Shown one piece after another: positions 5,330 to 36,254 of a stretch of 46,450 nucleotides of DNA. A program made the translations under genes and the position numbers. The stretch's first letter is position 1. Every line of letters starts with the position of its first letter. Under the pieces are notes generated by a model, which saw only the letters and a program-made list of their open reading frames with translations, was not told where the DNA came from and did not search any database. This stretch comes from a candidate division WOR-3 bacterium (GTDB lineage: Bacteria > Hydrothermota > Hydrothermia > LBFQ01 > DSFT01): NCBI GenBank assembly GCA_015494735.1, contig WGAQ01000159.1:1-46450 (forward strand), in the 5' to 3' direction.

Positions 5330-5356
5330 GGGGACTTTCCCCCTGTCCATTCTTTT
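5329..5356. terminator. Bidirectional intrinsic terminator between convergent pstS and atpD
   Basis: GGGGG (5329-5333), loop acttt, CCCCC (5339-5343), then tgtccattctttt. Confidence 0.5.
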
Positions 5357-6002: not shown

Positions 6003-6014
6003 GGTCCTCAAATT

Positions 6015-7577
6015 TTAAAGGGAGCCGGCCACGTACTCCTCGAATGCCCTCACCAGTTCCCCGGCATCCACGCTGGAAATTACGGGCTTTCCGACATCCT
6101 CTATCAGAACCATCCTTATGCTGGACCTGTAGAAACTGTCCAGATATTCTATCTCCTCCCTCAGACGGGCCATGGGCAATTCCTCCAGGGTGGCATCGAT
6201 GGAGTAGAGTCTGTACAGGGCCTCCACCCTCTCCAGTATAGCGGGATTCTTCAATATCCCTTTCCTCCGGCTCATATCGAGGACGATTTTCAATCCTATG
6301 GCAAGGGCCTTCGAGTACGGGACACCGGTCACATCCTGGAGAATCGACGAGACTATCCATCCGAATTTTATGAATCTGCGCTCCCTCCACCCATAGGCAT
6401 CCCTGTGGATGAAGGCCACTTTGGCCAGAGCAGTCGCCCTTATGAGATGCTCGAGGGAGGGGAGGTACATGTCCTTTATGTTCCGGGTATCCTTTTCGAG
6501 AGTATCTATGATTTCGCCATCATGAAGCAGACCGAACTTTATTGCAGTCACCAGCGAGTTATAAAATTCCTGCTCCCTGAGCGAAAGGAGGAACACGGGG
6601 TCCATGAGGATGAATCTGGGATAATAGCTGGTTCCGAGCACATTCTTCATACCGTTGAGATTCAGCATATTGACCCCGCCGACCGCCACCTCAACCTGCG
6701 CTGTAAAGGTGGTGGGGATTAAGACCAGATGCATACCCCCCTGAAATGTGGACGCCGTAAACCCCGTCAGGTCCATGGAGCTCCCTCCTCCCAGCGCCAC
6801 AATGGGGGTGTACTTGGATATGCGCCTCTTTATCAGCTCCTTCCAGATTTCCCGTGCCCTCTCCAGATTCTTGACACTCTGATTGTCCGGAAGGTACAGG
6901 ACATCGTAGGGCATGTTGAAGTTACCCATCACATCCAGGGCCCACTTGAAGTGTATCAGAAAGAGCCGCTTAAACGTGATGAAGAAGGCGTCATCGAATC
7001 CCTCCATGCGCAGAATATCGGAGAACTCCTTGAAGGAGTTGATGCCGAGGTAAATCTTCTCACCGTTGCTGTAAATCAGGGCATAGTCCGAGCGCAGTAT
7101 CCGGGTTATCATGATGGCCACTTCCCTGTCGGTGAAACCCTCTGTGGGCACGTTGTACATATAGGGGAGAAGCTCCTCCACCTCTCTGTTCAGGTCCTGA
7201 AGGCTCTTCAACTTCAGTATGGGATGGGCGACGGGTTCCTCCTGTATGCTCTTCTCCAGAGTCTCTGTAGTGGAACTCAGGTAAACGGGTATTATGCCAT
7301 TCTCCCTGATTATGTGGAGTTCATTGATGGACGGCAGGAGGTCCGAACTGAGGAGTATGACCCCCGCTTCCGGATTCATGACCAGGTCCAGCTCCTGCCT
7401 GCGGAATTCGTCGAGGAGGTTGTTCTCTATAATCTCCAGCATACTCCTGTGCATCCGGGACTCCACTTCCTTCTGGAGGTCCAGAATCTTCCATCCGAGC
7501 CATCTGTTGAGATATTCAGCGATGCGGTACTTGTGGGAGCCCGGAAGTCCGCATATATACACACCCCTTACCTTCAT
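6015..7577 (-). CDS. Shikimate kinase-like / 3-dehydroquinate synthase-like fusion protein, apparently catalytically degenerate
   Basis: The N-terminus aligns by eye to AroK but the Walker A is GLPGSHKY rather than GxxxxGK[ST]. The C-terminal half aligns to AroB: GGGSSMDLTGF...IPTTFTAQVEVAVGGVNMLN...MKNVLGTSYYP. The start ATG overlaps the upstream stop as ATGA. Confidence 0.7.
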   Translation of the reverse strand: MKVRGVYICGLPGSHKYRIAEYLNRWLGWKILDLQKEVESRMHRSMLEIIENNLLDEFRRQELDLVMNPEAGVILLSSDLLPSINELHIIRENGIIPVYLSSTTETLEKSIQEEPVAHPILKLKSLQDLNREVEELLPYMYNVPTEGFTDREVAIMITRILRSDYALIYSNGEKIYLGINSFKEFSDILRMEGFDDAFFITFKRLFLIHFKWALDVMGNFNMPYDVLYLPDNQSVKNLERAREIWKELIKRRISKYTPIVALGGGSSMDLTGFTASTFQGGMHLVLIPTTFTAQVEVAVGGVNMLNLNGMKNVLGTSYYPRFILMDPVFLLSLREQEFYNSLVTAIKFGLLHDGEIIDTLEKDTRNIKDMYLPSLEHLIRATALAKVAFIHRDAYGWRERRFIKFGWIVSSILQDVTGVPYSKALAIGLKIVLDMSRRKGILKNPAILERVEALYRLYSIDATLEELPMARLREEIEYLDSFYRSSIRMVLIEDVGKPVISSVDAGELVRAFEEYVAGSL

Positions 7578-10500
7578 CTCACCACCACCAGTTTCTTTCG
7601 ATACACCTTCCTTATTCCGCTACTCTCAAGTTTAAGGACAGCAATGTAGAGACCGCTTCCCAGTCTGGCATCCTCCCACACCACGGAGTTGAATCCGGCA
7701 TTCACGGTGAAGAGGGGCGAGGAGTAAACCAGATTACCGCTCATGTCGTACAGGAGAACCCTTCCGGTGGCCGGAGCCGTGGACACGAAGGTGAAGTAGA
7801 GGTCCCCTCCCCTGAAGGGAACGGGATAGAGGAGGAAATCCGAGACCTCCAGTTGATTGCTGGCGAAGTAGAGCACGTAATCCCGGGTCGAGAGATTATC
7901 GTAATTGTCCCACGCCCGTATGGTAAGCCTGTGCCATCCCTGCTCCCGCGTCAAATCGTACTGGAGAAGGGCCTCTCCCTCCGTGTAGGAGTTCTCGTAG
8001 TAGGAGAAGGACTGGGTTAGGGTCCACCTGAGCTGGCCATCCACATAGACCTCTATGTCCCTCTCACCGGGGGAGAGGTATATGCCGTTCTCATCGGACA
8101 GAACGATGCGGAAAGTCCCGACGGGGGAGAAGGACATGCTATCCCTCACATCCCTTCCCCCTATCATCATGCGGATGGATGGTCCTATCGTATCCTGTGC
8201 AATTCTGGCAGGGTCAAATGCCACCGATATGGAATCCCTGCCCTTCACACCACCCCTGTACAGGGCCCTCACCTTCAGTTTTCTGGCGACCGGAGTATTC
8301 TTGGGGATTATCGCCCGCAGGGAATCGGAATAGAGGGGGGCCCGGAAGAAGGTCTTATCCTCGTCCATGTAAGTGTAGGTGTAGGAGCAGTTGGTGACCG
8401 TTATGGTGTCCGGGAGGAATCCTATGGTGGAGAAGTACTGCCCCTGCCCCCCGAGGTATGCCGAATAGAGGGCACCCACGTAAGCGGTATCCGGAGCCCA
8501 TATCACGCTGTCCGGAGGCTCGTACCCGATGGACACGGATGGGTCCCCGAAGAGGACATAGTACTTGTTGGTCTTTCCCTGAAGGGCAAGGAATCCCATC
8601 GGATACTTCCTGTAGTCCATAAGGGTGGAAAAGATGGTGTTGGCGTAAATCTGATTGCCCGTCACATAGGACAGGGCAGTGGCTCCCAGAAGGCCGATGG
8701 CCCCGCCGTCCTCGATGAACATCAACTCCCCCAGCCCCCTGGGACCGGCGAAACTGATTCTATCGAAGACGCTCACCTTACAACTGAGTATCATGACGAA
8801 GGGATTGTGGCCCGCGGTGTTGAGCAGGTGGACGTTGTCTAAAGTGATGAGCCTCTCCCCGGCTATGGTGGAGGGGTTCCCATGGGCGAAGACGTTGACG
8901 ATGAGGTTGCCCGAATTGTACTTACTGATGAAATCGGAGGTGGCCTGCGGTTTGGTGCCCCCAACGGTGGGATACTCGTGCATGTAGAGGGTCCAGACTT
9001 CCGCCTCAAGGGGGATGAGATTCCTCCTTATGTAATCCGATGGAACGAGATGCCAGGTGATTTCGCATGGACTGCTTCCCACGAAGTCATCCGCCACCAG
9101 CATCACCCGATTCCTCCAGAAGGAGAAGAATCTGGACGTTTCGTAGTCCATTACCCTCGAAATTATCCTGCCCGTTTCACCTGAGTTCCTCACAGGTATC
9201 CTTCCGATGTATATGTCCGCGTATCCGTTTCCATCGAAATCCGCATAGAAATCGTCCCAGGAGCCCACCCCCGTTATGTTTATATCGTACACCTCCTTCA
9301 CATCGTAATAGACGGGAAAGAGATTCCCCTCCGTCGTGATGTACCCCCGGTAATCGTACGTGGCATCTCCCACGAAGAGGGCATAGAGGAGGGAGGGGGT
9401 GGAATTGTACAGGGAATACAGGAAATTCCTTATGGCCACAGGGTCAGGAACACCGAGGGAGAACTGGTCGTAAATCTCCTCCAGAGACACGTATTCCACG
9501 TTCCCGGAGCCCGCGCAGAATATGGTGTCGCATTCGACGGGCATCCTGCTTCTTCTGAATTCCCGGTAAGAGTCGAAGACCCCCCTGAAAATCTCCTTTC
9601 CGATAATCACGTACGCCACATCCCCCAGATTCCTTATGTCCCTGCCGATGTTGACGTAATGGAGGGATGGGGAGAGAAAAGTGTCCGATTTGAAATAAAT
9701 GTCTCCCGGGGACACCTCATCCGCACCGGAGGAAAGGATTACGGGATGAGCAGGGTCGGTTATGCGCAGAATCAGGGGTGCATCCCCCAGATGGTACGTG
9801 CCCGTGACGGAAGAGAAGATCTTTCCGGAAGAAGGAAGGCTCCTGCTGTACCTGATTTCGAAGTAGTCCAGATACACCATCTGATTGGTGCCGTTGACTC
9901 TGAAGGTTATGCTCCCCTGAGGGGACAGGTTGGAAACGGGAACCGTAAGGGTGCTCTTCCTGGCATTGTACGTATTCACCGTTGCCACGAGATTCCCGTT
10001 GAGGAATACGTCCACCGTGCCGTATCCGGTGAAATCCCCCAGGTCCTCCGCCCCCACTATGGAGACGGAAAGGGTCCCGGATGGAGAGGTCAACCCCTCC
10101 AGGGTAAAATCGAAAGTGTGGCTTCCATAGGTCATCTCCTCCCCCACCCAGGCCGTTCCCTTCCTGCCCGGATTGAACCTCTGGATTTCGTGATGGTATA
10201 TCCCCAGCGCCGGAAGGGGCGAGGAGGAGGACACGGAAGATGTACCCATGCGAATTCCCGGAGATGGGGCTCCTATTCCGAGCCAGTAGGATGTGAAGTT
10301 GCTGTATGGATGGATGAAGTAAAAGATGGTGGAATCGGAACTGCGGAATCCATCCGGGCCCTCTGCGTAGAAGAAGATGTAGTCCTCCGCATCCATCATG
10401 CCATCCCCGTCGGCATCGTGAATGCCATAGGCGATTTCCACTGCCCCGCTGTCTGCCCATTCGATATCGCTCCTCAACGTGTCGAACAGTCCAAGGAGCA

Positions 10501-11050
10501 GAACTCCATCGAATCTCAGCTCCCCTGCAGGTATGCCCAGAGATGTAAGGTCCGAGCCATACACCCTGTAAACCCCGGAAGTGGTTATATTCATGCGTAC
10601 CCAGTACCGGGCTCCGTTTATGAATCCCAGCTTCCCGGGGGCGACCCTCCGCCCCCTTATCCACTCCCGCGGGAAGGGATAGTTGATGAATCGCCTGTAT
10701 ATGGGCCTCCATCTGCCATCCCCTTTCCCTCCCCCGGATAGGGAAATCCTGACCCTCCACCTCACGGGCACCTTTCCACCCCTCAGAACGGGGTTGAAGG
10801 TGAGAACCACGTGGTCCACCTCTCCCCTCACCACCCTGTAATTCAGTGGACTGTCATGGCTGGAATACAGATTCAACCCGAGGGGAGCACTCTTCCACTC
10901 CAGAACGGTATAGTCCACCCTGACCTTCGCGCCGGGAGGAATGGCCACCAGATGGGTCGTGGGGGCATTGATGAGATTTTCGTACTCTATGACTATACCC
11001 CTGTCGCTATTCTCCAGAATGCTCACCGATGAGAAAAGGAGGAAAATCAT
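7574..11050 (-). CDS. C25 family cysteine peptidase with T9SS C-terminal domain (PorU-like sortase candidate)
   Basis: 1158 aa. Gingipain-type dyad VNVFAHGNPS (His codon 8882-8884) and FVMILSCKVS (Cys codon 8780-8782), 34 residues apart. FVGDATYDY...FYADFDGNGYADIYIGRIPV is C25-typical. CTD is YPVPFRGGDLYF...LLYDMSGNLV...GLYIAVL...KLVVVR. Confidence 0.8.
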   Translation of the reverse strand: MIFLLFSSVSILENSDRGIVIEYENLINAPTTHLVAIPPGAKVRVDYTVLEWKSAPLGLNLYSSHDSPLNYRVVRGEVDHVVLTFNPVLRGGKVPVRWRVRISLSGGGKGDGRWRPIYRRFINYPFPREWIRGRRVAPGKLGFINGARYWVRMNITTSGVYRVYGSDLTSLGIPAGELRFDGVLLLGLFDTLRSDIEWADSGAVEIAYGIHDADGDGMMDAEDYIFFYAEGPDGFRSSDSTIFYFIHPYSNFTSYWLGIGAPSPGIRMGTSSVSSSSPLPALGIYHHEIQRFNPGRKGTAWVGEEMTYGSHTFDFTLEGLTSPSGTLSVSIVGAEDLGDFTGYGTVDVFLNGNLVATVNTYNARKSTLTVPVSNLSPQGSITFRVNGTNQMVYLDYFEIRYSRSLPSSGKIFSSVTGTYHLGDAPLILRITDPAHPVILSSGADEVSPGDIYFKSDTFLSPSLHYVNIGRDIRNLGDVAYVIIGKEIFRGVFDSYREFRRSRMPVECDTIFCAGSGNVEYVSLEEIYDQFSLGVPDPVAIRNFLYSLYNSTPSLLYALFVGDATYDYRGYITTEGNLFPVYYDVKEVYDINITGVGSWDDFYADFDGNGYADIYIGRIPVRNSGETGRIISRVMDYETSRFFSFWRNRVMLVADDFVGSSPCEITWHLVPSDYIRRNLIPLEAEVWTLYMHEYPTVGGTKPQATSDFISKYNSGNLIVNVFAHGNPSTIAGERLITLDNVHLLNTAGHNPFVMILSCKVSVFDRISFAGPRGLGELMFIEDGGAIGLLGATALSYVTGNQIYANTIFSTLMDYRKYPMGFLALQGKTNKYYVLFGDPSVSIGYEPPDSVIWAPDTAYVGALYSAYLGGQGQYFSTIGFLPDTITVTNCSYTYTYMDEDKTFFRAPLYSDSLRAIIPKNTPVARKLKVRALYRGGVKGRDSISVAFDPARIAQDTIGPSIRMMIGGRDVRDSMSFSPVGTFRIVLSDENGIYLSPGERDIEVYVDGQLRWTLTQSFSYYENSYTEGEALLQYDLTREQGWHRLTIRAWDNYDNLSTRDYVLYFASNQLEVSDFLLYPVPFRGGDLYFTFVSTAPATGRVLLYDMSGNLVYSSPLFTVNAGFNSVVWEDARLGSGLYIAVLKLESSGIRKVYRKKLVVVR

Positions 11051-18953: not shown

Positions 18954-20603
18954 TCAGAACATGTTCCCCACGCCGAAGTAAATCCTGACATCCGCAGGGA
19001 AGACCCTGAACTTATCGTTCACAGCGAAATCGATGCGTATGGGGGCAAATCCCGCATAGAACCTCAATCCGAACCCATACCCGATGGCGGGTTTTTTAGA
19101 GAAGAGAAGGGAAAGGGTGTCCGAGGTCCACGCCCCATCCATGAAGAGGACGAATCCGAACCTGGAGGTCAGATGATTCCTGTACTCCAGATTGAAGTTC
19201 AGGTAATTGGTGGAAGCGGGATTCAGACTATCGCTGACCACGGTTCCTATGCTGTTGAAGTCGTATCCCCTCACGGAACCCTCCCCCCCAAGGAGGAATC
19301 TCTCGCTGTAGGGGACCTCCTCGCGGGAGAAAATCTGGCCTCCCCTGAGCCTGAGGGCCAGTGTGTGGATATCCAGACTCCGGTATATGGCATACACTTC
19401 CGTCAACTTCCAGAAACTGGCCCCCGAAAAGGCCCTCTGGGTGTAAAGGGACATGAGGACACCGAAGGTGGCATCCAGTATGTTGTTCCTGTCATCGTAA
19501 GTGGCCCTCTGGAAGATGCTGTTTATGTTCATGTAGGGCTGATAGGTGAAGGCCTCCGTCTTCTTCCAGGAGAGGCCCAGGTGAACGTAGAAGTACCTCG
19601 AGAATTCCTTTATGGTCTCCGCGTTGAGGCCGTACTCGTTTACATCCTTCGTCCTGTAGTGGAAGGCATTCATGTTAAACCGTAGATTCTTCCTGTCCAG
19701 GAAGTACCTCTCCCTGTAATATATGTCCAGCCTCCTCTCGTATATGCTGACCCCATCGGAAAAGGAGAAGAGAAGGACCGGGGCAACTTCCAGATTCTGC
19801 ATGTTTCCAAAAATGTTGTAGTGTCCGAGACGAAAACTCAGGTACAGATATGATGGATAGGTGAAACCCAAGTTGTTCTCCAGATATCTCAACTTACTCT
19901 CCTTCACCACGAAGACCAGAATGCTGTCGTCCCTTATCCTGTAATTGACGGCGTCGAATACCTGAAGCGAATACAGTCTCCTGACCGACTCCATAACCCT
20001 GGAATACCGGAACACCTCCGGAGGATGAATCACTATCTCCTTGAAGAAGATGGCGGAGCGTATGTGATGATTGCCCTCGATGACGATTTTCTTTATCGTA
20101 ACGGGAGGACCGGATGAAATCTTCTCCTTAAGAACCACGGCGGTATCGTTCAGGAATGTGGTATCGCGGGTCATCTGGAAGTGGGGGTAGCCGTTTTCGT
20201 AGTAGAAGTAGTAGATATCGGTCTCCAGCGAGGATATGAAGTCCTCATCGTAGGGTACCGGACGGAAATTCCTCTCCAGGCGGGCAACGTACGGCAGGAT
20301 GGTGTCCCCCTCGAACACCAGGTCCACTATCCACGCCCTCCTCCCCTCCTGTATCTTAAGGAAGATGTCCACGGTGGCATCCGGATTTATCCTGTAGGAG
20401 CTCTCTATCCTGGCGGAGAAGAAGCCCTTGCTCGCATAGAGTATCTGAAGCCTGGCCACTCCCGAGCGAAGCCTCACCCGGCTGAAGGCTCCCCCCTCCT
20501 TCAATCTGAGGGCTTCCACAATCCTGTGGGTGGGGAAGAAGTGATTCCCCTCGACATTTATGGAGCGAATTTTGAGATAAGAAAGGAGAAAGAAGGGGAG
20601 CAA
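18954..20603 (-). CDS. Omp85/BamA family outer-membrane protein
   Basis: POTRA-like INVEGNHFFPTHRIVEALRLKEG...LQILYASKGFFSARIE. C-terminal barrel GYGFGLRFYAGFAPIRIDFAV...YFGVGNMF. TTG start 10 nt after the atpA stop, with GGGGGG as a possible SD. Confidence 0.85.
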   Translation of the reverse strand: MLPFFLLSYLKIRSINVEGNHFFPTHRIVEALRLKEGGAFSRVRLRSGVARLQILYASKGFFSARIESSYRINPDATVDIFLKIQEGRRAWIVDLVFEGDTILPYVARLERNFRPVPYDEDFISSLETDIYYFYYENGYPHFQMTRDTTFLNDTAVVLKEKISSGPPVTIKKIVIEGNHHIRSAIFFKEIVIHPPEVFRYSRVMESVRRLYSLQVFDAVNYRIRDDSILVFVVKESKLRYLENNLGFTYPSYLYLSFRLGHYNIFGNMQNLEVAPVLLFSFSDGVSIYERRLDIYYRERYFLDRKNLRFNMNAFHYRTKDVNEYGLNAETIKEFSRYFYVHLGLSWKKTEAFTYQPYMNINSIFQRATYDDRNNILDATFGVLMSLYTQRAFSGASFWKLTEVYAIYRSLDIHTLALRLRGGQIFSREEVPYSERFLLGGEGSVRGYDFNSIGTVVSDSLNPASTNYLNFNLEYRNHLTSRFGFVLFMDGAWTSDTLSLLFSKKPAIGYGFGLRFYAGFAPIRIDFAVNDKFRVFPADVRIYFGVGNMF

Positions 20604-20613
20604 GGCACCCCCC

Positions 20614-22413
20614 TTATACTGCTTCCCTTCTCTTGGAAAGTTCCTGCTTCAGAGAGTTGAGTATATCCTGAGCCACGGCATCCACCTTATCCTCGGGCTC
20701 CTCCTTCAGACGCATAATCCGCTCCACCTGCGGAAGGGTCGGAATCTCGTCCGCTTCCAGAATCTCCTCCTCCACTGCCCTGCGGATTTCCTCGTAGAAC
20801 TTATAAATGGTGTCCATCATGACGAACTGCTTGTGGAGGGAGCAGTCAGCATCCACGGGATGGAATGCATTCTGCTGTAGATAACCGATTCGGATAATCC
20901 TTCCGATTTCCAGCATGACCCTCTCCATCTCCTGAAGGGCATCGGGACCGATGAGTTGCACGATTTCCTCGAGTTCGGCCTCCTTCTGAAGCACCTCGGA
21001 AATCCAGGTGCGCCTCTCGCTCCAGAGCTCGTTGACATTCTCTTTATACCACTTCTCTATGAGGGGATAGTAAAGGGTATAACTCTTGAGCCAGTTGATG
21101 GCCGGATAGTGCCTCCTCCTGGCCAGGTTGGAATCCAGAGCCCAGAAGGCACCCACCACCCTGAGGGTGGCCTGAGTAACGGGCTCGGAGTAATCACCTC
21201 CCTGAGGGGACACCGCACCAACCGCCGTAACGGAACCCTCCTGATTGGACAGGGTCCTGACGCGGCCGGTCCTCTCGTAGAAGGCTGCGAGCCTGGAGGA
21301 CAGATAGGTGGGATAACCCTCTTCACCGGGCATCTCCTCGAGACGAGAGGACAACTCCCTCAGGGCCTCCGCCCATCTGGAAGTGGAGTCCGCCAGAAGG
21401 AGCACATTGTAGCCCATATCCCTGTAGTACTCCGCAAGGGTAATACCGGTGTAGATGGACGCTTCACGGGCGGCAACGGGCATGTTGGAGGTGTTCACCA
21501 CCAGTATGGTCCTGTTCATGAGGGGCTCTCCGGGTCTTGTGGGGTCCTCCAGCTCGGGGAATTCGGTCAGAACTTCTGTCATCTCGTTTCCACGCTCACC
21601 GCATCCGATGTAAACCACCACGTCCACCCTCGCATACTTGGCCAGGGTCTGCTCCGTAACCGTCTTACCGGTGCCGAATCCACCGGGCAGACCTGCGTTT
21701 CCGCCCAGCGCTATGGGGAATAGGGTATCCAGAATCCTCTGACCCGTCTGGAGGGGGATGGTGGGAAGCTCCTTCCGGAGGACAGGCCTGGGAACACGGA
21801 CGGGCCACTTGTGGGCCATCCTGATTTCGTACTCCTTACCGGTCTCGTCGTCCTTTATAACCGCAATGGTATCGTGAACCGTATAGGAACCTTCCTTTAT
21901 ATCCACGACCGTAAAGGTCTTCTCGAAGTCTTCCTTATCGAACTCCGTCTTACCGATGATGTTGGGAGGTACCATCACCCTGTGGGGAATGGAGGGGGTT
22001 TCCTGCACCTCCCCTATCACGCTTCCCAGCTTAACCTTATCGCCCACCTTTACTGTGGGCCTGAATTCCCACTTCTTTTCCGGGTCGAGGGCCGGAATAT
22101 CCACGCCCCTGGTAATGAAGGGACCAACCCTGTCCCTGATAACGTCGAGGGGACGCTGAATTCCGTCGAATGCCTGTCCGAGAAGTCCGGGGCCCAGTTC
22201 CACAACCAGCGATTCTCCAGTCCTCTCTATGGGCTCTCCCACGAAGAGTCCGGAAGTGTCCTCGTAAACCTGTATGAATGCTGTATCTCCCTTAAGCCTG
22301 ATTATCTCTCCCACCAGTTTTTCCTTACCCACCTTCACGATTTCGTTCATTCGGGCCCCTCTGAGACCCTTTCCAACGACCAGTACGCCCGCTATCCTCG
22401 AAATCTCAGCCAT
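20614..22413 (-). CDS. atpA: V-type ATP synthase catalytic subunit A
   Basis: [16 protein letters not shown] and Walker [10 protein letters not shown]. 599 aa with no intein-sized insertion. Confidence 0.95.
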
Positions 22414-27725: not shown

Positions 27726-30700
27726 ATGTTCGCTCTGCTGGTGATGGCTGTGGGAGGTGGTGTGCATATTCGATACGACGAAAGTATTCTCCGCTCCCTC
27801 CCCACCAATCCCTATCCCGGGGAGCCGGCTCTGCCGGTCGATATAAGGAGATTTACCCTCCCGGGGAATGCCGGGAATGTGAGGGTGGTGGTGGATGACA
27901 TTCGCATGGAGAGAATCGATATCGATTCCGTGGATTTCAACGATACCATAGTAATCGCAATGGAGAGAAGGGATTCCATAATCCCCCTCCCCGCAAAAGC
28001 CCACCTCTCTCCTGTGGTGCTGGAGGGGTACGGGAGGAAAAGGGATTCCACCATAGCAGTGGTGAGAATAAATCCCGTTTACTTCGACGGAAAGAGGGCA
28101 TACAGGATTCGAAGCATCTCCTTTCATCTGGAGTGGGAGGAATTGACCGATAACACGCAGAATCCACTGCCCGACAGTCTCGACTACCTGATACTGACAG
28201 TATCCTGGCTCCATCCATACGTGGATTCGATTGCATATCTCGCGAAGATAAGGGGATTCAGGACCCTGGTCATAGATGTGGACGATATAGCCACGAATCC
28301 AGGACGCATAAGGGACACGATAAAGTACTACTACAGGAACTTCGGCATCAGATACGCATCCATAGTGGCCCACGCCAGCATAGTACATCCATATCTCCTG
28401 AGATTCCACCCGGACAGCGTCCTCTACTGGTACTATCCAACGGGCCCGCTGGTGTACACGGACTTTCCCTATATGGCTCTGGATGGTGATTACTTCACGA
28501 GTCAGGACGAATTCATAGGGGATGGGGATGACAACACGGACATGGTGGCGGACATAGGATTCTCCAGAATACCCGTATCCACCCTGCCGGAGTTGAAGGA
28601 CTACTACACCAAATTCAAGTCCCATGTAATGGGAGAGAATAACACCACACCGGCATCTGTCACGTGTCTGGAGAGCCGCCTCGATGTGGACACCACATCC
28701 TTTTCATGGCTCTGCGAAACAGCCACGTACGGACTGGGAATTCCCCGGATACAGAGGATGTACGAGCCCTACTTCGACTATTTCCTGACACCGCAGGAGT
28801 TCTTCGATTCCCTCAACACCCTGAAGCCCCAGTTCTTCATTTACATCGGGCATTCCAACATAGACAGAATACTGACCACCTACTACCCCCGTCAGGATAT
28901 ATTCACCTCCACATACTACTCCCTCATGGAAAACTACGCCATACCCTTCTCCTACATAGGGGGATGCTGGCCCGGCGACCCCATGAGCGCTTCCATGGCG
29001 GTGAACCTCCCCAGGATAGACGGCAGGGGAAGTCTGTTTTCTATGGGGGCATCCAAACTCGATTACGCCACCAACGAAGCCATAAAGGCCAGGGGAATCC
29101 TCGAGGCCTTCTTCGTATTGAACAGGTCCTTTGCAGGGGATGTGATGAACTATGTCAGGGAGGACTACGTGGGGAGGAGGTACTTCCTTTACGAAATCAT
29201 GACCTATGGGGACCCCACCCTCACCATATACAAATCGAGCCCATCGCCTCCGCCGGCCGAAATCCTGCTTTCGAACAGCGAGGTGGGTGTGGTTGCTTAC
29301 GAGGACTCTCTGATGCTCTCCATAGTGGGAAGACATCTGTACGAAAGGCACATCCTGAATGAAGGGGGCAATTCCATACCCCTGCACGTGAATGCACCGG
29401 AAACTTTGACGGTGTCCATATGGAAACCCGGATACACTCCCATGCTCAGGAAAGTGTTCGTGCTTCCCGATGGGGTGGTCTTCGGGGAGCCCACCATGGG
29501 TGGTATAGCCCTTCCCGGAGACACCATCGCCATTCTGCTCGTCGCGCACAATTACACGGATGAAACCCTTCCCTATTCCCTGCATCTGGAAACCGAGAAT
29601 GCCTATCTGCTGCAGGATAATCTGAGCGGCACCCTTCCACCCCGCTCCGCGGACACCCTGACGGTGAGCCTCATTCCATCCAATGCGGAAACCTTCACCC
29701 TGAGGTTGATTCACGATGGAAGGGTGCAGAGTTACAGGTTTCCCATAGCCGCCCTCTCCCCCCACATAGCAGGTGTGAGGTGGCTCGACGACAGTGCAGA
29801 AGTGGACATATACAATCCCTCCTCCAGGCCCATGAGCCTAAACCTGACGACAGAATTCGAGAGGAAAGTACTGGAAGTGCCCCCTTCGGGAACGGGAAGC
29901 ATAATGCTCTATGCTCCGGATTCATCCCTCACCCTGAGGCTCGAACTTCCGGAGTTCCAGACGAAGGTTACCCTGGTAAGGGCAGAGGGCCCCAATCCTC
30001 CCAAATCCGTAAGGGCATACAGCATACCATCGGGGATACAACTTTACATGGTGAACCTGCCCCCGTCGGCCCATGCGTTCCGAATATACAGGAAGAGGCA
30101 GGGGGACATAAGGGGATATGTGCATGCGGGCATCACCTCTCCGGGTTCCATGGTATTCGTGGATTACCCGGGGGATTATGGAAATTACTGCTACAGGGTC
30201 TCGGCGCTGGACCAGTATATGAACGAAGGGGAGCTGTCGGATGAGGTGTGTGCCAGTCCCGGACCCGATTACGGATTCATGAAACCCATATCGTACGCAG
30301 AGCAAATATATTCTCAACCCGTCGTGGGGCAGTTCGACAGGACCACCCCCTCTTTCGAACTCTTCCTGGTGGGCAATGTGCACATGTCCTTCTACGACTC
30401 CCACGGGTCCCCATACGATGGTTATCCCATAACGACCATGCTGGAGGTGCGGACCAAGCCCGTGGTGGCGGACTACGATGGGGATGGATTCGAGGAGGTA
30501 ATCCTCTCCGGAAAGAGCACGACGGATAACCGCTCCTATATACTGGCGGTGGAACTGGATGGAAGAGTGGATACCCTGTTCACATCGGAGCACCCCTACG
30601 ACTTCGCCCTCTCAGGAGGCCTGCTGGCCGCAGACATGACGGGGGATGGCACTCCGGAAATCGTGTTCAAGAACTACTACGGCAACGACCCCTATGCCCC

Positions 30701-31817
30701 GAGGTTCATCTTCCTCAGCGGGGATTCCCTCATGTTCCAGTTCCGGCTCAACGGCGATGCATTCAACTACATAATCCCCGCCGCCGCCGACATCGACTCC
30801 GACGGAAAATTCGAACTCGTGTTTCTGGATGAGGACAAGCAATTGTACGCTCTCAACGGAGACAGTTCCTTCGTGGATGGTTATCCGGTGGACCTCTCGG
30901 GGGACATACCCGGAACCATAAACTATACGGAGGTTCTGGGAATCGATTCCCTGATAATAGCCATAAGCAGGACATCCGAGGGAGACATATACCTCAGCAA
31001 AATCCAGGTGGATGGAACCCCCATCGGGACCATTCAGGTGGCATCGGGGGCTGTTCACTATTACTGGCAGCACTCCGCTCTCGGGTATATCGATGGGGAC
31101 CGGATACCAGACCTGGCCATCCCCACGAGGGACAGCCTGATTCTGGTGAACGTGGAAGGGGAGCGAATAGCACCATCCCTGTACCAGTACCTGCTGGGCC
31201 CATACACTATGTCCTCCCCGATACTGGCGGACGCCGGACTGGATGGGAAGATCGACATCGTCTTCTCCAATGCATCCATGATACAGGTTTACGAATACGA
31301 TGGTGGACAGTTGAGGGAGTACGCTGGATTTCCCCTGATAATGGCCGATGACTCCACCATGGACAGCGAAGGTTTATTCCCTCCATTCGTGGAGGATGTG
31401 GATGGAAACGGATTCGGGGAGTTATACGTTGCGATGAACAGGCTGGGATACGTGTACCAGATAGAATCGCCTTCATTCCGCGTACTGCCGTGGTCTCAGG
31501 AGTTCTCCAACAGATGGAACACCAGCTGGTACGGATTCGAGCCCCCATCGGTGCCGGTATCGGACGGCGAAGACATCCGTATAAAGCAGCCGGACATCTC
31601 GGTGCATCCGGGATACATAATGCTGCAGGGGCAGGCCGGGATGCCCTACAGTGTGGACATATACAGCATTTCCGGCAGGAGGGTCATGGGTGTCTCCGGG
31701 CAGATACCTGCATCCGGAAGAAGGAGGGTGGACATCGCCCTTCCCGATGGAATTTACGTGGTCAGAGGAAGGGTGGGTGCGCTGTCCATCACCCGGAAGG
31801 TGGTGAACGTAAGATGA
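27726..31817 (+). CDS. Multidomain C25 peptidase / FN3-like / FG-GAP(VCBS) beta-propeller protein with T9SS C-terminal domain
   Basis: 1363 aa. C25 core LDYLILTV...MALDGDYF...ADIGFSRIPV. Dyad FIYIGHSN (His codon 28851-28853) and YIGGCWPG (Cys codon 28965-28967). FN3-like YRIYRKRQ...YCYRVSALDQYMNEGELSDEV. At least six D-x-D/T-G-D-G repeats (ADYDGDGFEE, ADMTGDGTPE, ADIDSDGKFE, YIDGDRIPD, DAGLDGKID, EDVDGNGFGE). CTD is YSVDIYSISGRRV...DGIYVVRG...KVVNVR. Confidence 0.8.
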   Translation: MFALLVMAVGGGVHIRYDESILRSLPTNPYPGEPALPVDIRRFTLPGNAGNVRVVVDDIRMERIDIDSVDFNDTIVIAMERRDSIIPLPAKAHLSPVVLEGYGRKRDSTIAVVRINPVYFDGKRAYRIRSISFHLEWEELTDNTQNPLPDSLDYLILTVSWLHPYVDSIAYLAKIRGFRTLVIDVDDIATNPGRIRDTIKYYYRNFGIRYASIVAHASIVHPYLLRFHPDSVLYWYYPTGPLVYTDFPYMALDGDYFTSQDEFIGDGDDNTDMVADIGFSRIPVSTLPELKDYYTKFKSHVMGENNTTPASVTCLESRLDVDTTSFSWLCETATYGLGIPRIQRMYEPYFDYFLTPQEFFDSLNTLKPQFFIYIGHSNIDRILTTYYPRQDIFTSTYYSLMENYAIPFSYIGGCWPGDPMSASMAVNLPRIDGRGSLFSMGASKLDYATNEAIKARGILEAFFVLNRSFAGDVMNYVREDYVGRRYFLYEIMTYGDPTLTIYKSSPSPPPAEILLSNSEVGVVAYEDSLMLSIVGRHLYERHILNEGGNSIPLHVNAPETLTVSIWKPGYTPMLRKVFVLPDGVVFGEPTMGGIALPGDTIAILLVAHNYTDETLPYSLHLETENAYLLQDNLSGTLPPRSADTLTVSLIPSNAETFTLRLIHDGRVQSYRFPIAALSPHIAGVRWLDDSAEVDIYNPSSRPMSLNLTTEFERKVLEVPPSGTGSIMLYAPDSSLTLRLELPEFQTKVTLVRAEGPNPPKSVRAYSIPSGIQLYMVNLPPSAHAFRIYRKRQGDIRGYVHAGITSPGSMVFVDYPGDYGNYCYRVSALDQYMNEGELSDEVCASPGPDYGFMKPISYAEQIYSQPVVGQFDRTTPSFELFLVGNVHMSFYDSHGSPYDGYPITTMLEVRTKPVVADYDGDGFEEVILSGKSTTDNRSYILAVELDGRVDTLFTSEHPYDFALSGGLLAADMTGDGTPEIVFKNYYGNDPYAPRFIFLSGDSLMFQFRLNGDAFNYIIPAAADIDSDGKFELVFLDEDKQLYALNGDSSFVDGYPVDLSGDIPGTINYTEVLGIDSLIIAISRTSEGDIYLSKIQVDGTPIGTIQVASGAVHYYWQHSALGYIDGDRIPDLAIPTRDSLILVNVEGERIAPSLYQYLLGPYTMSSPILADAGLDGKIDIVFSNASMIQVYEYDGGQLREYAGFPLIMADDSTMDSEGLFPPFVEDVDGNGFGELYVAMNRLGYVYQIESPSFRVLPWSQEFSNRWNTSWYGFEPPSVPVSDGEDIRIKQPDISVHPGYIMLQGQAGMPYSVDIYSISGRRVMGVSGQIPASGRRRVDIALPDGIYVVRGRVGALSITRKVVNVR

Positions 31818-32419
31818 TCTGGCTCATAGCAGGGTTCCAGATTGCCCGTCTCCAGTACGAGGGGGGAGGTGACTGGTACAACGACCCGGAGGTCATACCC
31901 AATCTGGTCAGATTCATAAAGCAGCACGTGAATATCGAACTGGAAGATAGTCAGGCGGTGGTGCACGTCTCCAGCCCGGAAATCTTCAACTATCCGGTGG
32001 TCTATCTGACGGGGCACGGGAACCTCTTCTTCAGGGATGTGGATGCGGAGAATCTGAGGAAATATCTGATTTCAGGCGGATTCCTTTACGTGGACGACGA
32101 CTACGGTCTGGATAAGTACTTCCGGAGGGAAATCAGAAAGGTATTCCCGGACAGGGAACTGGTGGAACTCCCGCTGGACCATCCCCTCTTTAGCATATAC
32201 TGGAAGTTCCCCCGCGGACTTCCGAAGATACACGAGCACTATCCGGGACCGCCCAGAGCCTACGGAATATTCTACGGGGGGAGGCTCGTGGTCCTGTACA
32301 CGTACAACTCCAACATATCGGACGGATGGACCGACAGACACGGGGACCCGCCGCAGAAGAGGGAGGAGGCCCTGAAGTTTGGCATGAACATCATCCTCTT
32401 CGCAACTATGTATCAATGA
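31814..32419 (+). CDS. DUF4159 domain-containing protein
   Basis: FQIARLQYEGGGDWYNDPEVIPNLVRFIKQH...PVVYLTGHGNLFF...GGFLYVDDDYG...GLPKIHEH...SDGWTD matches my recollection of the DUF4159 family. ATG 31814 overlaps the upstream stop (ATGA). The track ORF start at 31490 is an out-of-gene extension. Confidence 0.8.
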   Translation: MIWLIAGFQIARLQYEGGGDWYNDPEVIPNLVRFIKQHVNIELEDSQAVVHVSSPEIFNYPVVYLTGHGNLFFRDVDAENLRKYLISGGFLYVDDDYGLDKYFRREIRKVFPDRELVELPLDHPLFSIYWKFPRGLPKIHEHYPGPPRAYGIFYGGRLVVLYTYNSNISDGWTDRHGDPPQKREEALKFGMNIILFATMYQ

Positions 32420-32494: not shown

Positions 32495-34039
32495 ATGGTT
32501 ATCAAGCGCAATCTCCCGGTAGCAGAACTCTATGAACTATCGCTTAAAAATGGATTGGGGGTCCTTGCCGCACAGGGGCAACTGGTGGTGGATACCCGCC
32601 CCTACACGGGCCGCTCCCCAAGGGACAAGTTCGTGGTGAGGGACGAGTTTACGGAGGACAAAATCTGGTGGGGCGATGTGAACCAGCCCTTCGAGAGGGA
32701 AAAATTCGAGCAGATTCTCCGGGAAGTGAAGGAGTATCTCGAAAAGAAGGATGTCGTTTACGTTCAGGACGGCTTTGCGGGAGCAGACCCGAGGCACAGG
32801 ATTGGGGTACGGGTTATGACAGAGAGCCCTTGGCATGCCATATTCGCCTACAACATGTTCATCAGGCCCACGAAGGAGGAACTGGAGAGATTCGAACCCC
32901 ATCTGACCATATACCACGCACCCTCCTTCAAGGCAGTGCCGGAAAAGCACGGAACCAGGAGCGAGGCGTTCATCGGGATGGACCTGAAGAATCGCATAAT
33001 CGTCATCGTGGGGACATCCTACGGTGGAGAGATAAAGAAGTCCGTCTTCTCCTACCTCAACTACTACTATCCATACGAGAAGGGCATCCTGTCCATGCAC
33101 TGCGGTGCCAACATCGGAAAAGCCGGAGACACCGCCCTCTTCTTCGGCCTATCGGGGACGGGAAAGACCTCCCTCTCCACCGATTCCACCAGGCCCCTCA
33201 TCGGGGACGACGAGCACGGGTGGTCGGATGAAGGTATATTCAACTTCGAGGGGGGCTGCTACGCCAAGGTCATAAAGATTTCCAGGGAGAAGGAGCCGGA
33301 GATTTATCGCGCATCCACCAGATTCGGAACCATACTGGAAAACGTGGTTCTGGATGAGAATCGCATGCCCGACTTCGATGATGGTAGCAAGACCGAAAAT
33401 ACGCGTTCCAGCTATCCCATATACTTCCTCGAGAATGTGAAGGAGGACGGGATGGGCGGACACCCCAGGAATATATTCTTCCTCTCCGCAGACGCCTTCG
33501 GAGTCCTGCCTCCCATAGCCAAGCTCACGAGGGAGCAGGCCATGTACTATTTCCTCTCCGGGTACACCGCCAAGGTGGCGGGAACGGAAAGGGGAATAAC
33601 GGAGCCCGTTGCCACCTTCTCCGCATGCTTCGGAGAGCCCTTCCTTCCGCTTCATCCATTCGAATACGCGAAGATGCTGGGCGAAAAGATAGACAGGTAC
33701 AGCCCCAATATATGGCTGGTGAACACGGGATGGACCGGCGGTCCCTACGGTGTGGGGCACAGGATAGACATAAACTACACCCGCCGGATGATAAGGGCTG
33801 CGCTCAACGGGGAATTGGACAACGTGGAGTACTTCACCATGCCCATATTCGAGCTGAGGGTTCCAAAGCACATAAGGGGCATCCCCGACGAGGTGCTCAA
33901 TCCCCGCGAGACATGGGCAGATAAGGAAGCCTACGACGAGCAGGCGAAGAAACTGGCCAGGATGTTCATAGAGAACTTCAGGAAGTACGAGGACAAAGTC
34001 ACGGAAGACGTGAAGAAAGCAGGACCATGGATGGTTTGA
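32495..34039 (+). CDS. pckA: Phosphoenolpyruvate carboxykinase (ATP)
   Basis: [22 protein letters not shown] kinase-1a motif, LIGDDEHGW. Confidence 0.95.
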
Positions 34040-34920
34040 ATATTTTGACGGCCTTCTTCGCAGGGGTGATTTCCTTCCTCTCCCCCTGCGTCTTTCCACT
34101 GATACCTTCGTATATTGCATACGTAGGTGGTGTTTCGGTACTCTCCGGCGAGAGAAGGGGCGTATCCCTCAGCACCATAATCAACCTCCTCCTCTTCATA
34201 CTGGGCTTCTCCCTGGTATTCATAGCATTCGGAGCCGGAGCCACCTTCATCGGACAGTTCATGGCGAAGAACAAGATGCTCCTGGCGAAGGTGGCGGGAA
34301 CGGTCATAGTCCTGTTCGGACTGAGTTTCATGGGCGTCTTCAACAAACGCATGAAAAGGGAATATCCCCTGCGGGTCAAAGTCCTCGGATGGCTCTCCCT
34401 CGTGGCATTCGCAGTGGCCCTGTACATATTCTTCTTCTCCCGGTACGATTCCCTCATCATGGGCCTCATATACCTGACACTGGTCTCCGCTTTCGCCTAC
34501 CTGCTGAACTACCTGTCCATCATCACTTTCGAATTCCTGAATTACGAGGCCAAATTCCAGTATCAGGCCAAGAAGTCCACCTACATGACCTCCTTCATCC
34601 TGGGTCTGTCATTCGCTTTCGGATGGACCCCATGCATCGGTCCCATACTGGCCGCCATCATTGCCATGGCTGCGGTCCAGGAGACGGTGATGCAGGGTAT
34701 CATCCTCCTGGCATTCTACTCTCTGGGTCTCGGACTCCCCTTCTTCATATCCGGGATACTGGTGGACCTGCTCCTCAAGAGCCTGAAGGCCATCCGGAAG
34801 TACTTCCGCCTCATAGAAATCATCGCGGGGGTCATGCTCATCGTCATAGGAGTTCTCATATACACGGACCTCCTGCAGCAACTGGCATACCTCCTTCCGG
34901 ACCTGGGGCTGGAGTACTGA
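34027..34920 (+). CDS. ccdA: Cytochrome c biogenesis / thiol-disulfide transporter CcdA (DsbD family)
   Basis: [21 protein letters not shown] and [11 protein letters not shown], the two conserved Cys motifs. Overlaps the pckA end by 13 nt. Confidence 0.85.
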
Positions 34921-36254
34921 TGTTCCAGGAAATCATTCTCCCCTTTGCCACGGTGCTCTCGGCTTTCGGAGGAAACTTCGAGATATTCATCGGAACAGAA
35001 GGAGCAGTGGCCATATACAGCACATCGATGGACAGGGTGGAGTGGTCCCATCCGGTCAGCGGAAGGGTGGAGCATGTCGTGTACTCCAATGGAAGCATTT
35101 ACTTTTACAGCAACGGGAAGCTCTATTCCATATCGAGGGGTTCCGGTCCCCTCGACCCGCCCCTGTCCCTGCGGGACGTTTCCCCTCCCCTGCGAATGGG
35201 CGTTTCCTCAGATGGCCTCGTGGTTCTGGACTATGGCTCCCGGAAGATGTACATAGACCCGGCCGGATTCGAGAAGGACAGGCACTCCGGGGAAATAGAG
35301 TGGGGAGGCTCGTACAGGGATGGGAGCATATACCGGTACCCCCAGATAGAGAACCTTTACCTGTATCGACCATCCATAGGAAAGGTGAAGCCCCTATTCC
35401 TCCTGCCATACAGGGATAGGTGGCTGGTGGGGACGGATGGACTGGGTCTCCTGGTGTTCAACTCCGGCAGTTTATTTCCCTTCGATACAGTCCTGGCTGG
35501 CACCTTCAACGGCAGGTACAACACCTTACGATTTATGGACGGAAAGCTCTTCATCGGAGGGGACAGGGGAATAGATATATACGAATCGGGGAGATTCAAT
35601 TCCATGGCCCTTTCCGGATGCAACGGTCAGGTGGACGAGATATTTCCCATGGGAGGAGAGTACTATGCGGCCGCATGCGGCAGGATATACAGGTTCACCC
35701 CGGATGGCAGGAGTGTGGACCTGACGGGAAATATCGGCTACGAGCGCATAATTCCTCTCAGGGGAAGGGTCTTCATCCTCTACAGGGGAGAATTGTACGA
35801 ATTCACCGGCAGAAGAATAACACGCATCATGAACAGGTGGGTTTACGACGTGGCTTACTGGAGGGGCAGATTCTACGCCATAACGGACAGGGGCATCATC
35901 TCCCTGAAGGACTCATCCACCATAGAACTGGACAGGAAGAGCTGGATAGACAGGAATATAAGGGCATACTCCGACGGCGATACGATTGCGATATGCAGCC
36001 GATTCGGCATAATGCTGTTCGATGGGAAATGGACATTCTTCGAGCAGGGTATGGGTAACATTTACCAGTGCGAGAAGGTGAAGGGGAAGATATTCTCCAT
36101 ATCGTCTTCCGGAGTGTGGACCCTGGACCCGAAGGATGGAAGATGGGACAGGATTCTCCCGAGGCTGGAGAATGTGCGGAGGATGGCATACGGAAACGGC
36201 ATCTACTACTTCATGACTCCAGAAGCCATCTTCGGAGGAATGGATTTCCGATAA
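34920..36254 (+). CDS. Hypothetical beta-propeller-like repeat protein
   Basis: ATG 34920 overlaps the ccdA stop (TGATG). Repetitive G-x-hydrophobic-Y/F strands (GSIYFYSNGKLYSI, GRIYRFTPDG, GELYEFTG, GRFYAITDRGII, GKIFSISSSGVWTL). Hydrophobic N-terminus. The track ORF start at 34389 is out-of-frame overlap with ccdA. Confidence 0.5.
   Translation: MFQEIILPFATVLSAFGGNFEIFIGTEGAVAIYSTSMDRVEWSHPVSGRVEHVVYSNGSIYFYSNGKLYSISRGSGPLDPPLSLRDVSPPLRMGVSSDGLVVLDYGSRKMYIDPAGFEKDRHSGEIEWGGSYRDGSIYRYPQIENLYLYRPSIGKVKPLFLLPYRDRWLVGTDGLGLLVFNSGSLFPFDTVLAGTFNGRYNTLRFMDGKLFIGGDRGIDIYESGRFNSMALSGCNGQVDEIFPMGGEYYAAACGRIYRFTPDGRSVDLTGNIGYERIIPLRGRVFILYRGELYEFTGRRITRIMNRWVYDVAYWRGRFYAITDRGIISLKDSSTIELDRKSWIDRNIRAYSDGDTIAICSRFGIMLFDGKWTFFEQGMGNIYQCEKVKGKIFSISSSGVWTLDPKDGRWDRILPRLENVRRMAYGNGIYYFMTPEAIFGGMDFR

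What the first reader, a model, noticed from the sequence alone, without database searches (positions are those of the whole stretch)
27726..32419. Giant C25 / FN3 / FG-GAP propeller / CTD protein translationally coupled to a DUF4159 gene
A 1363-aa ORF combines a C25 peptidase core with an intact dyad (His 28851-28853, Cys 28965-28967), Ig/FN3-like modules, at least six calcium-binding-type D-x-D-G-D-G FG-GAP/VCBS repeats and a T9SS tail. Its stop overlaps (ATGA at 31814-31817) the start of a 201-aa DUF4159 protein. That family has no assigned function, and I recall it mostly from Bacteroidetes and Planctomycetes-type genomes. The overlap suggests stoichiometric co-production, so DUF4159 may be a chaperone, inhibitor or anchoring partner of the protease-adhesin. 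The pairing of a protease domain with an integrin-like propeller in a T9SS cargo is also unusual.
Basis: partly seen in the sequence, partly recalled or inferred. Interest (0 to 1): 0.6.

Follow-up and report, generated by a model that had tools for sequence, protein, structure and literature searches.

The report
Gingipain-like surface protease beside DUF4159
An uncultured WOR-3 bacterium encodes a large gingipain-type surface protease whose stop overlaps the start of a small conserved gene of unknown function, but the two genes sit together in only one bacterial family, so the pairing looks like ordinary gene packing in a small genome.

Summary
ORF 27726-31817 encodes 1363 aa with a C25 domain, the His376/Cys414 dyad, Ig/FN3 modules, an FG-GAP propeller and a T9SS C-terminal domain (CTD). 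Its TGA overlaps the ATG of a 201-aa DUF4159 gene (ATGA at 31814-31817).

The large protein belongs to a widespread WOR-3 family of gingipain-like T9SS cargo. The dyad is invariant in 28 homologues. The family profile matches RgpB better than PorU, and also matches the Kgp prodomain and solved CTDs. The genome's PorU-like sortase is a separate gene in the same window.

The proposed functional coupling to DUF4159 is not supported.
- DUF4159 is single-copy in 57 of 61 WOR-3 genomes, but adjoins this protease only in part of one family (f1).
- In the sister genus of f1, and in every other family, both genes persist apart.
- Among 80 loci across FCB phyla, DUF4159's recurrent neighbour is DUF4175 (41 of 80). 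A C25 gene is adjacent only in the window's own genus.
- About 10% of this genome's genes end in the same kind of 4-nt overlap. Examples are PorU/aroKB here and orthologous protease/prfA elsewhere.

Co-transcription is likely but a partnership is unlikely. This is a new member of a known kind, of low to moderate interest.

The parts
27726..31817 (+). Gene for the 1363-aa gingipain-like (C25) T9SS cargo protein
   Evidence: The ORF is intact. Pfam finds C25 and FG-GAP. Full-length orthologues occur in most WOR-3 families.
27771..28121 (+). N-terminal prodomain-like region (about residues 16-132)
   Evidence: The family profile A1 matches the Kgp prodomain structure 5mun_A with E 5e-6. Pfam Propeptide_C25 hits 1 of 19 members.
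28185..29225 (+). C25 catalytic domain (residues 154-500), with His376 at 28851-28853 and Cys414 at 28965-28967
   Evidence: The family profile hits RgpB structures 4ief and 1cvr (E 4e-22) and PorU structure 6za2 (E 4e-15).
29253..30329 (+). Ig-like and FN3-like spacer modules (about residues 510-868)
   Evidence: CarboxypepD_reg and Big_1 hit several family members. FN3-like structures 3mpc and 7jgt match profile positions 776-868.
30363..31505 (+). FG-GAP beta-propeller (about residues 880-1260) with five canonical Ca-type DxDxDG loops
   Evidence: Pfam FG-GAP_3 and FG-GAP match. The loops are at residues 916, 970, 1022, 1169 and 1224. PDB hits include integrin alpha-V and CRTAC1 propellers.
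31644..31814 (+). T9SS type-A C-terminal sorting domain (residues 1307-1363)
   Evidence: TIGR04183 scores 20.2 bits, below its cut-off of 23. 15 of 19 homologues match it. The family profile hits solved CTDs 8glk and 8glj.
31814..31817 (+). ATGA start/stop overlap
   Evidence: The sequence shows it. The same 4-nt overlap occurs in L011, L012, L013 and L014.
31814..32419 (+). DUF4159 gene (201 aa)
   Evidence: PF13709 scores 207.9 bits. The AF2 model has pLDDT 91.5 and matches PDB 4i66 with TM 0.81. The gene is single-copy in 57 of 61 relatives.
7574..11050 (-). Context: PorU-like T9SS sortase, the only other C25 gene in the genome
   Evidence: NF033707 scores 360.8 bits (below its cut-off of 420) and the CTD scores 24.6 bits. 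One search finds only these two C25 genes. Its stop overlaps aroK/aroB (6015-7577) by 4 nt.

Best explanation
The 1363-aa gene encodes a gingipain-type (MEROPS C25, clan CD) cysteine peptidase built as a T9SS cargo. Its parts, in order, are a short hydrophobic N-terminus, a gingipain-like prodomain, a catalytic domain with the His376/Cys414 dyad, Ig/FN3 spacers, a Ca-binding FG-GAP beta-propeller (probably a binding or adhesion module) and a C-terminal sorting domain.

Inferred route: Sec export, then passage through the SprA-type T9SS translocon, then CTD removal and surface attachment by the PorU-like sortase encoded 17 kb upstream, then activation by prodomain removal.

The DUF4159 gene is a separate, slowly evolving, single-copy gene for a probable envelope protein, found across the FCB group. 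Elsewhere it usually sits in front of a DUF4175 membrane/coiled-coil protein. In one WOR-3 family a rearrangement placed it directly behind the protease gene.

The two genes are very probably co-transcribed, and possibly translationally coupled. That reflects gene packing in a 1.76-Mb genome, not a chaperone, inhibitor or anchor relationship.
For: Protease identity:
- The C25 domain scores above the Pfam cut-off.
- The dyad is invariant in 28 homologues.
- The family profile hits RgpB (E 4e-22), more strongly than PorU (E 4e-15). It also hits the Kgp prodomain, FN3 modules, propellers and solved CTDs.

T9SS context:
- A PorU-like gene lies in the window.
- An ORF with a SprA_N match is present in the genome.
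- About 40 ORFs in the genome match the CTD profile built here.

Against a partnership with DUF4159:
- DUF4159 is present once in 57 of 61 WOR-3 genomes, whereas C25 genes number 2 to 17 per genome.
- The two genes are adjacent only in G000, G001 and close metagenomic relatives.
- The sister genus keeps a full-length orthologue and DUF4159 on different contigs. There DUF4159 overlaps sbcD by 4 nt.
- In more distant WOR-3 families the protease sits in tpiA-secG-rplU-protease-prfA, and overlaps prfA by 4 nt in two loci.
- Among 80 FCB loci, 41 carry DUF4175 and 1 carries an adjacent C25 gene, which is in the window's own genus.
- 127 of 1258 long ORFs in this genome end in a 4-nt overlap with a downstream ORF.
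- The protease family carries its own prodomain-like region.
- The DUF4159 fold matches only the uncharacterised 4i66 structure. It resembles no known inhibitor or chaperone.
Against: - The pair survives inside family f1 across protease divergence down to 30% identity, and with three different sets of flanking genes. That is more persistence than its neighbours show.
- DUF4159 homologues in other phyla have clear signal peptides. The protein could therefore meet the cargo in the periplasm.
- Peptidase activity, secretion and surface attachment are all inferred and not shown.
- The protein's own CTD score is below the curated cut-off.
Confidence: 0.72

Rival explanations
1. This is a true functional pair in WOR-3 family f1. 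DUF4159 is co-produced with the C25 protein and acts on it in the envelope as a periplasmic holdase, latency factor or anchoring partner.
For: - The 4-nt overlap and the adjacency are kept in L011, L012, L013, L014 and G001, despite different flanks and protease identity as low as 30%.
- The DUF4159 family is exported in other phyla.
- In f1 this protease is the only C25 gene other than PorU.
Against: - The pair is split in the sister genus, and both genes are retained there.
- It is absent in the other 11 sampled WOR-3 families and in 78 of the 80 FCB loci.
- DUF4159 is 74-95% conserved while its supposed client has dropped to 30%, so there is no sign of co-evolution.
- DUF4159 overlaps sbcD in the sister lineage.
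- T9SS-CTD genes are not enriched near DUF4159: 16 of 345 neighbours against 9 of 361 other genes, p = 0.15.
- The window's DUF4159 keeps only about 7 hydrophobic residues ahead of the fold.
Confidence: 0.1
2. The large protein is not a degradative protease. It is a second T9SS processing enzyme, a PorU2- or PorZ-like attachment-complex component, in which the C25 domain acts as a transpeptidase and the propeller binds the surface glycolipid anchor.
For: - 12 of 19 family members give weak PorU (NF033707) hits and 8 of 19 give PorU2 N-terminal hits.
- The family is vertically conserved in most WOR-3 families, often in housekeeping surroundings such as tpiA-secG-rplU-X-prfA.
- PorZ is a propeller-plus-CTD protein (from my own knowledge, not tested here).
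Against: - P0001 itself gives no PorU or PorU2 hit at E < 0.1 and shows no significant BLASTP similarity to the genome's PorU-like protein.
- The family profile matches RgpB better than PorU, and matches a gingipain prodomain.
- One search found no match, or only weak ones, to this protein in several WOR-3 families, which still carry C25 genes and DUF4159.
Confidence: 0.12
3. DUF4159 is expressed independently from an internal promoter within the 3' end of the protease gene. The overlap then has no consequence for expression.
For: - Nothing measured here shows co-transcription.
- WOR-3 promoter motifs are unknown, so an internal promoter cannot be excluded.
Against: - No sigma-70-like site lies on the + strand between 29816 and 32816, and no terminator-like site lies on the + strand between the genes. 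The scan is at chance level overall and may not apply to this phylum.
- A Shine-Dalgarno-like AAGGTGGTGA lies about 9 nt upstream of the ATG.
- The start position is conserved in all linked orthologues.
Confidence: 0.06

Closest known systems
Gingipains RgpB and Kgp of Porphyromonas gingivalis (MEROPS C25; PDB 1cvr, 4ief, 4rbm; prodomain 5mun)
   Same: - N-terminal prodomain-like region.
- C25 catalytic domain with a His/Cys dyad, followed by an Ig-like domain.
- Extra binding modules.
- A T9SS C-terminal domain.
- RgpB (4ief, 1cvr) is the best solved-structure match of the family profile (E 4e-22).
   Different: - Overall identity is very low: P0001 alone finds nothing in the PDB by phmmer.
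- The binding module is an FG-GAP propeller plus FN3, not haemagglutinin/adhesin domains.
- The motif after the catalytic His is H-S, not H-G.
- The host is a small-genome environmental WOR-3 bacterium.
- Substrate specificity is unknown.
PorU, the T9SS C-terminal signal peptidase/sortase (NF033707; PDB 6za2)
   Same: It is a C25-fold domain with the dyad, has a similar size, keeps its own CTD and is T9SS-dependent.
   Different: - P0001 gives no NF033707 hit.
- It has no significant similarity to the window's own PorU-like protein at 7574-11050.
- PorU has no FG-GAP propeller.
DUF4159 (PF13709; PDB 4i66, Hoch_4089 of Haliangium ochraceum), and the DUF4159-DUF4175(-TPR) envelope gene module of FCB phyla
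   Same: - Full-length PF13709 match.
- Same fold as 4i66 (TM 0.81).
- The own genome also has a DUF4175-like gene.
   Different: - Here DUF4159 is detached from DUF4175, which lies on contig C168, and sits behind a C25 gene.
- Its N-terminal signal peptide is reduced to about 7 residues.
- The GGGDWYNDP, TGHG, DDDY and PKxHEH motifs of the FCB subfamily are not conserved in 4i66.
- No member of the family has a known function.
T9SS-dependent M6-like inactivated metalloprotease (NCBIfam NF052323)
   Same: It has a protease-type N-terminal domain, an FG-GAP-like region and a T9SS CTD. 15 of 19 homologues match its FG-GAP region.
   Different: The protease class is different (metallo, inactivated, against cysteine with an intact dyad). 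The match covers the propeller region only and is far below the cut-off (37.6 bits against 600).

Membership tests
Peptidase family C25 (gingipain family, clan CD) | Match to PF01364 above the gathering score | tested here: met
   60.6 bits against a cut-off of 23, covering residues 154-500 and profile positions 1-373 of 374.
Peptidase family C25 (gingipain family, clan CD) | Catalytic His and Cys at the conserved positions | tested here: met
   His376 and Cys414 are invariant in 28 homologues. They fall inside the region that aligns to RgpB and PorU.
Peptidase family C25 (gingipain family, clan CD) | Peptidase activity | not testable with these tools
   This needs a recombinant enzyme and a C414A control.
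T9SS cargo with a type-A CTD | C-terminal sorting domain (TIGR04183 / PF18962) | tested here: inconclusive
   The protein's own score is 20.2 bits, below the cut-off of 23. At family level 15 of 19 homologues match, and the profile hits solved CTDs 8glk and 8glj with E about 2e-5.
T9SS cargo with a type-A CTD | T9SS machinery encoded in the same genome | tested here: met
   A PorU-like gene scores 360.8 bits (below the equivalog cut-off of 420). A 1748-aa ORF matches SprA_N at 55.6 bits. About 40 ORFs match the CTD profile.
T9SS cargo with a type-A CTD | N-terminal Sec signal peptide | tested here: inconclusive
   The N-terminus MFALLVMAVGGG is short, hydrophobic and uncharged. The PorU-like protein of this genome has the same kind of N-terminus, whereas PstS has a classical lipoprotein signal. 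No signal-peptide predictor was available.
PorU sortase / PorU2 | Match to NF033707 or NF052324 | tested here: not met
   P0001 gives no hit at E < 0.1. Weak sub-threshold hits appear only in more distant family members.
DUF4159 (PF13709) | Full-length profile match and the 4i66 fold | tested here: met
   207.9 bits over profile positions 1-201 of 202. The AF2 model (pLDDT 91.5) matches 4i66 with TM 0.81 and E 1.6e-13.
   The genes are adjacent only in part of WOR-3 family f1. They are unlinked in the sister genus, in the other 11 sampled families, and in 78 of 80 FCB loci.
DUF4159-DUF4175 envelope module | DUF4175 gene directly downstream of DUF4159 | tested here: not met
   In this window the downstream gene is PEPCK. 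The genome's DUF4175-like ORF is at C168:377-3265. Elsewhere, 30 of 62 analysed loci have DUF4175 at position +1.

The most novel reading that the evidence does not exclude
In WOR-3 family f1, DUF4159 has been taken out of its usual DUF4159-DUF4175 envelope module and placed under translational coupling with the genome's only non-PorU C25 protein. That would mean the still-unknown activity of DUF4159 acts on T9SS surface proteins, for example as a periplasmic holdase or modifier of cargo before attachment. It would give a first functional handle on a protein that is more than 55% identical across FCB phyla.
Probability: 0.08. Interest if true: 0.55.

Novelty: new member of a known kind. Interest (0 to 1): 0.25.

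Why it matters
As it stands, the result is mainly a corrected annotation. WOR-3 bacteria carry a conserved gingipain-like T9SS cargo with an FG-GAP propeller, separate from their PorU-like sortase. That fits a protein-degrading or surface-adhesive lifestyle for this uncultured phylum.

It is also a caution. In small, tightly packed genomes an ATGA overlap occurs at roughly one gene in ten, and it joins unrelated genes (PorU/aroKB here, protease/prfA and DUF4159/sbcD elsewhere). It should not be read as evidence of partnership.

The more interesting open question lies outside the finding. The small DUF4159 protein is remarkably conserved across the FCB group, and its real recurrent partner is DUF4175. 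Neither has a known function.

Tried and rejected
- Single-sequence AlphaFold of DUF4159 gave an unusable model (pLDDT 47.5). It was redone with an alignment.
- Foldseek against the PDB found only 4i66, so the fold gave no functional lead.
- phmmer of P0001 against the PDB found nothing. The family profile was needed.
- The sigma-70 promoter and terminator scan is at chance level and probably does not apply to this phylum.
- The literature search found no functional paper on DUF4159 (only a Pfam clan remark), nothing useful on DUF4175, and nothing on WOR-3 plus gingipain.
- I considered that the large protein is PorU or PorU2. I rejected this for membership.
- I considered that DUF4159 is cytoplasmic, which would exclude any contact. 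I rejected this as a firm argument, because homologues in other phyla have clear signal peptides.
- I tested whether T9SS-CTD genes are enriched near DUF4159. They are not significantly enriched (p = 0.15).
- My crude greedy gene caller missed the DUF4159 gene in 18 of the 80 loci. HMM scans were therefore repeated over all called genes of all 80 loci.
Full report
**What is there.**
The window is contig C159 of a 1.76-Mb, 182-contig metagenome-assembled genome. DUF4159 homologues from close relatives are labelled candidate division WOR-3.

ORF 27726..31817 (+) is open for 1363 codons. Pfam finds Peptidase_C25 at residues 154-500 (60.6 bits, cut-off 23), plus FG-GAP_3 and FG-GAP. NCBIfam gives only a sub-threshold T9SS sorting-domain hit (20.2 bits against 23) and a partial match to the FG-GAP region of a T9SS-dependent M6-like family.

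The stop codon overlaps the ATG of ORF 31814..32419 within ATGA. That ORF is a full-length DUF4159 (207.9 bits).

**What the large protein is.**
I collected 27 homologues: metagenomic proteins and long ORFs from related genomes. Overall identity is 18-30% for most of them. His376 and Cys414 are nonetheless invariant and sit in clan-CD-type motifs.

A profile of 19 members matched the following solved structures:

| Match | PDB entry | E-value | Profile region |
|---|---|---|---|
| Gingipain R | 4ief, 1cvr | 4e-22 | C25 domain and the Ig-like domain after it |
| PorU | 6za2 | 4e-15 | C25 domain |
| Kgp prodomain | 5mun | 5e-6 | residues about 16-132 |
| FN3-like modules | 3mpc, 7jgt | 2e-6, 2e-4 | about 776-868 |
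| Integrin and CRTAC1-type propellers | several | - | about 880-1260 |
| T9SS C-terminal domains | 8glk, 8glj | about 2e-5 | C-terminus |

Fifteen of the 19 members match TIGR04183. The architecture is therefore gingipain-like from end to end: prodomain, catalytic domain, Ig/FN3 spacers, a binding module (here a Ca-type FG-GAP propeller with five canonical DxDxDG loops) and a CTD.

The protein is not PorU. P0001 gives no PorU or PorU2 hit. It has no significant similarity to the PorU-like protein encoded at 7574..11050 (-) in the same window.

The genome has the machinery such a cargo needs: that PorU-like gene, a 1748-aa ORF matching SprA_N, and about 40 ORFs matching the CTD profile.

C25 genes are numerous in WOR-3, at 2 to 17 per genome. 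The window's family (f1) has exactly two, PorU and this one.

**What DUF4159 is.**
It is single-copy in 57 of 61 related genomes. It is 53-60% identical across WOR-3, Hydrothermia, Ignavibacteria, Kapaibacteria, Bacteroidota, KSB1, Latescibacteria, Zixibacteria, Cloacimonadota and Gemmatimonadota. Invariant motifs include GGGDWYNDP, TGHG, DDDY, PKxHxH and DGW.

An alignment-based AlphaFold model is confident (pLDDT 91.5). It matches only the uncharacterised DUF4159 crystal structure 4i66 (TM 0.81). The next hits are not significant, so the fold gives no function.

Homologues in other phyla have clear signal peptides, so the family is probably extracytoplasmic. The window's protein keeps only MIWLIAG ahead of the first conserved strand, so its own location is uncertain.

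**Testing the proposed coupling.**

1. Distribution of the pair within WOR-3.
   - The same-genus genome G001 has the same adjacency.
   - Metagenomic contigs L011, L013 and L014 (DUF4159 85-86% identical, protease 51%) and L012 (DUF4159 74%, protease only 30%) also keep the pair with a 4-nt overlap. Their flanking genes partly or wholly differ.
   - In the sister genus (G002-G006) a full-length orthologue (about 30% identity, 1372-1406 aa) and DUF4159 lie on different contigs.
   - There DUF4159 sits in front of sbcD-sbcC and overlaps sbcD by 4 nt.
   - A maximum-likelihood tree of the proteases puts all of these in one fully supported family clade. L012 joins the unlinked genus weakly (80/82).
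   - The simplest history is one gain in the family ancestor and one loss.
   - In every other sampled WOR-3 family the two genes are on different contigs or more than 90 kb apart.

2. Surroundings of the protease elsewhere.
   - In more distant families its orthologue lies in tpiA-secG-rplU-protease-prfA.
   - In two loci its stop overlaps the prfA start by 4 nt.

3. Surroundings of DUF4159 elsewhere.
   - I surveyed 80 genome loci of the small DUF4159 across FCB phyla, each with 6 kb of flank where the contig allowed.
   - 30 of the 62 loci my gene caller could analyse have a protein of about 1120 aa directly downstream. It has transmembrane and coiled-coil regions and is DUF4175 by Pfam.
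   - An HMM scan finds DUF4175-like genes in 41 of the 80 loci. C25-like genes appear in only two: the window's own genus (adjacent) and one other WOR-3 contig (three genes upstream).
   - Genes bearing a T9SS CTD are not significantly enriched near DUF4159 (p = 0.15).
   - The window's genome does carry a DUF4175-like ORF, but on another contig.

4. Base rate of the overlap.
   - 127 of 1258 ORFs of at least 150 aa in this genome end in a 4-nt overlap with a downstream ORF of at least 100 aa. 88 of these are ATGA.
   - In this very window the PorU-like gene overlaps an aroK/aroB fusion in the same way.

**Conclusion on mechanism.**
These steps are shown:
- the domain architecture;
- the conserved dyad;
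- T9SS genes present in the genome;
- the overlap itself;
- the restricted phylogenetic range of the adjacency;
- DUF4175 as the usual neighbour of DUF4159.

These steps are inferred:
- Sec export and T9SS passage;
- PorU-mediated attachment;
- zymogen activation by prodomain removal;
- a binding role for the propeller;
- co-transcription of the two genes.

The gene pair is best read as a lineage-specific operon fusion in a compact genome. The overlap itself may help keep the two genes together.

**Earlier notes from this scan.**
Other agents described DUF4159-DUF4175-TPR modules in FCB phyla, and DUF4159 heads on TonB-like anchors. These are AI notes and are mostly unchecked. My own neighbour survey found the DUF4175 adjacency independently, before I read the DUF4175 notes. 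I did not test the TonB-type fusions.

**Limits.**
- No signal-peptide predictor and no complex prediction were available.
- The neighbour analysis used a crude longest-ORF gene caller.
- The 61 relatives are a sample of the class, not all WOR-3 genomes.

Noticed in passing
window 7574-11050 (-) and 6015-7577 (-): A PorU-like T9SS sortase gene (1158 aa; NF033707 at 361 bits, below its cut-off; CTD 24.6 bits) ends in a 4-nt overlap with a fused shikimate kinase / 3-dehydroquinate synthase gene. This is an in-window example of start/stop overlap between unrelated genes.
   Followed up: partly
window 27726, 11050 (-), 31814; compare 4316: The C25 cargo, the PorU-like protein and DUF4159 all start with very short, uncharged hydrophobic N-termini (MFALLVMAVGGG, MIFLLFSSVSIL, MIWLIAGF). 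PstS has a classical lipoprotein signal (MPWKRLFPLALGIALAGC). This may be an unusual minimal export signal in this WOR-3 family.
   Followed up: no
80 loci L035-L114 from other genomes; own genome C168:377-3265 (-): The small, highly conserved DUF4159 of FCB phyla is followed directly by a DUF4175 protein of about 1120 aa (transmembrane plus coiled-coil) in 30 of 62 analysed loci, often with a TPR protein after that. Both are of unknown function. In this genome the DUF4175-like gene is unlinked.
   Followed up: partly
relatives G000-G060: The C25 peptidase family is strongly expanded in WOR-3, at 2 to 17 genes per genome of 1.2-2.4 Mb. Most are ORFs of 650-1600 aa.
   Followed up: no
loci L027-L030, L032, L034: In several distant WOR-3 families the orthologous C25-propeller gene is embedded in a housekeeping string, tpiA-secG-rplU-C25-prfA. 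That is an odd place for a secreted protease and suggests long vertical inheritance.
   Followed up: partly
window 34027-34920 (+) and 34389-36254 (+): A 297-aa ORF whose first 113 residues match DsbD_TM overlaps, by about 530 nt in another frame, a 621-aa ORF with no family match. One of the two may be spurious, or there may be a frameshift.
   Followed up: no
window 5355-6011 (-), 18954-22413 (-): V-type ATPase subunit genes are present (D at 5355-6011, A at 20614-22413; the 549-aa ORF between them was not scanned). A V/A-type ATPase is encoded next to NuoB (11277-11843) in this small genome.
   Followed up: no
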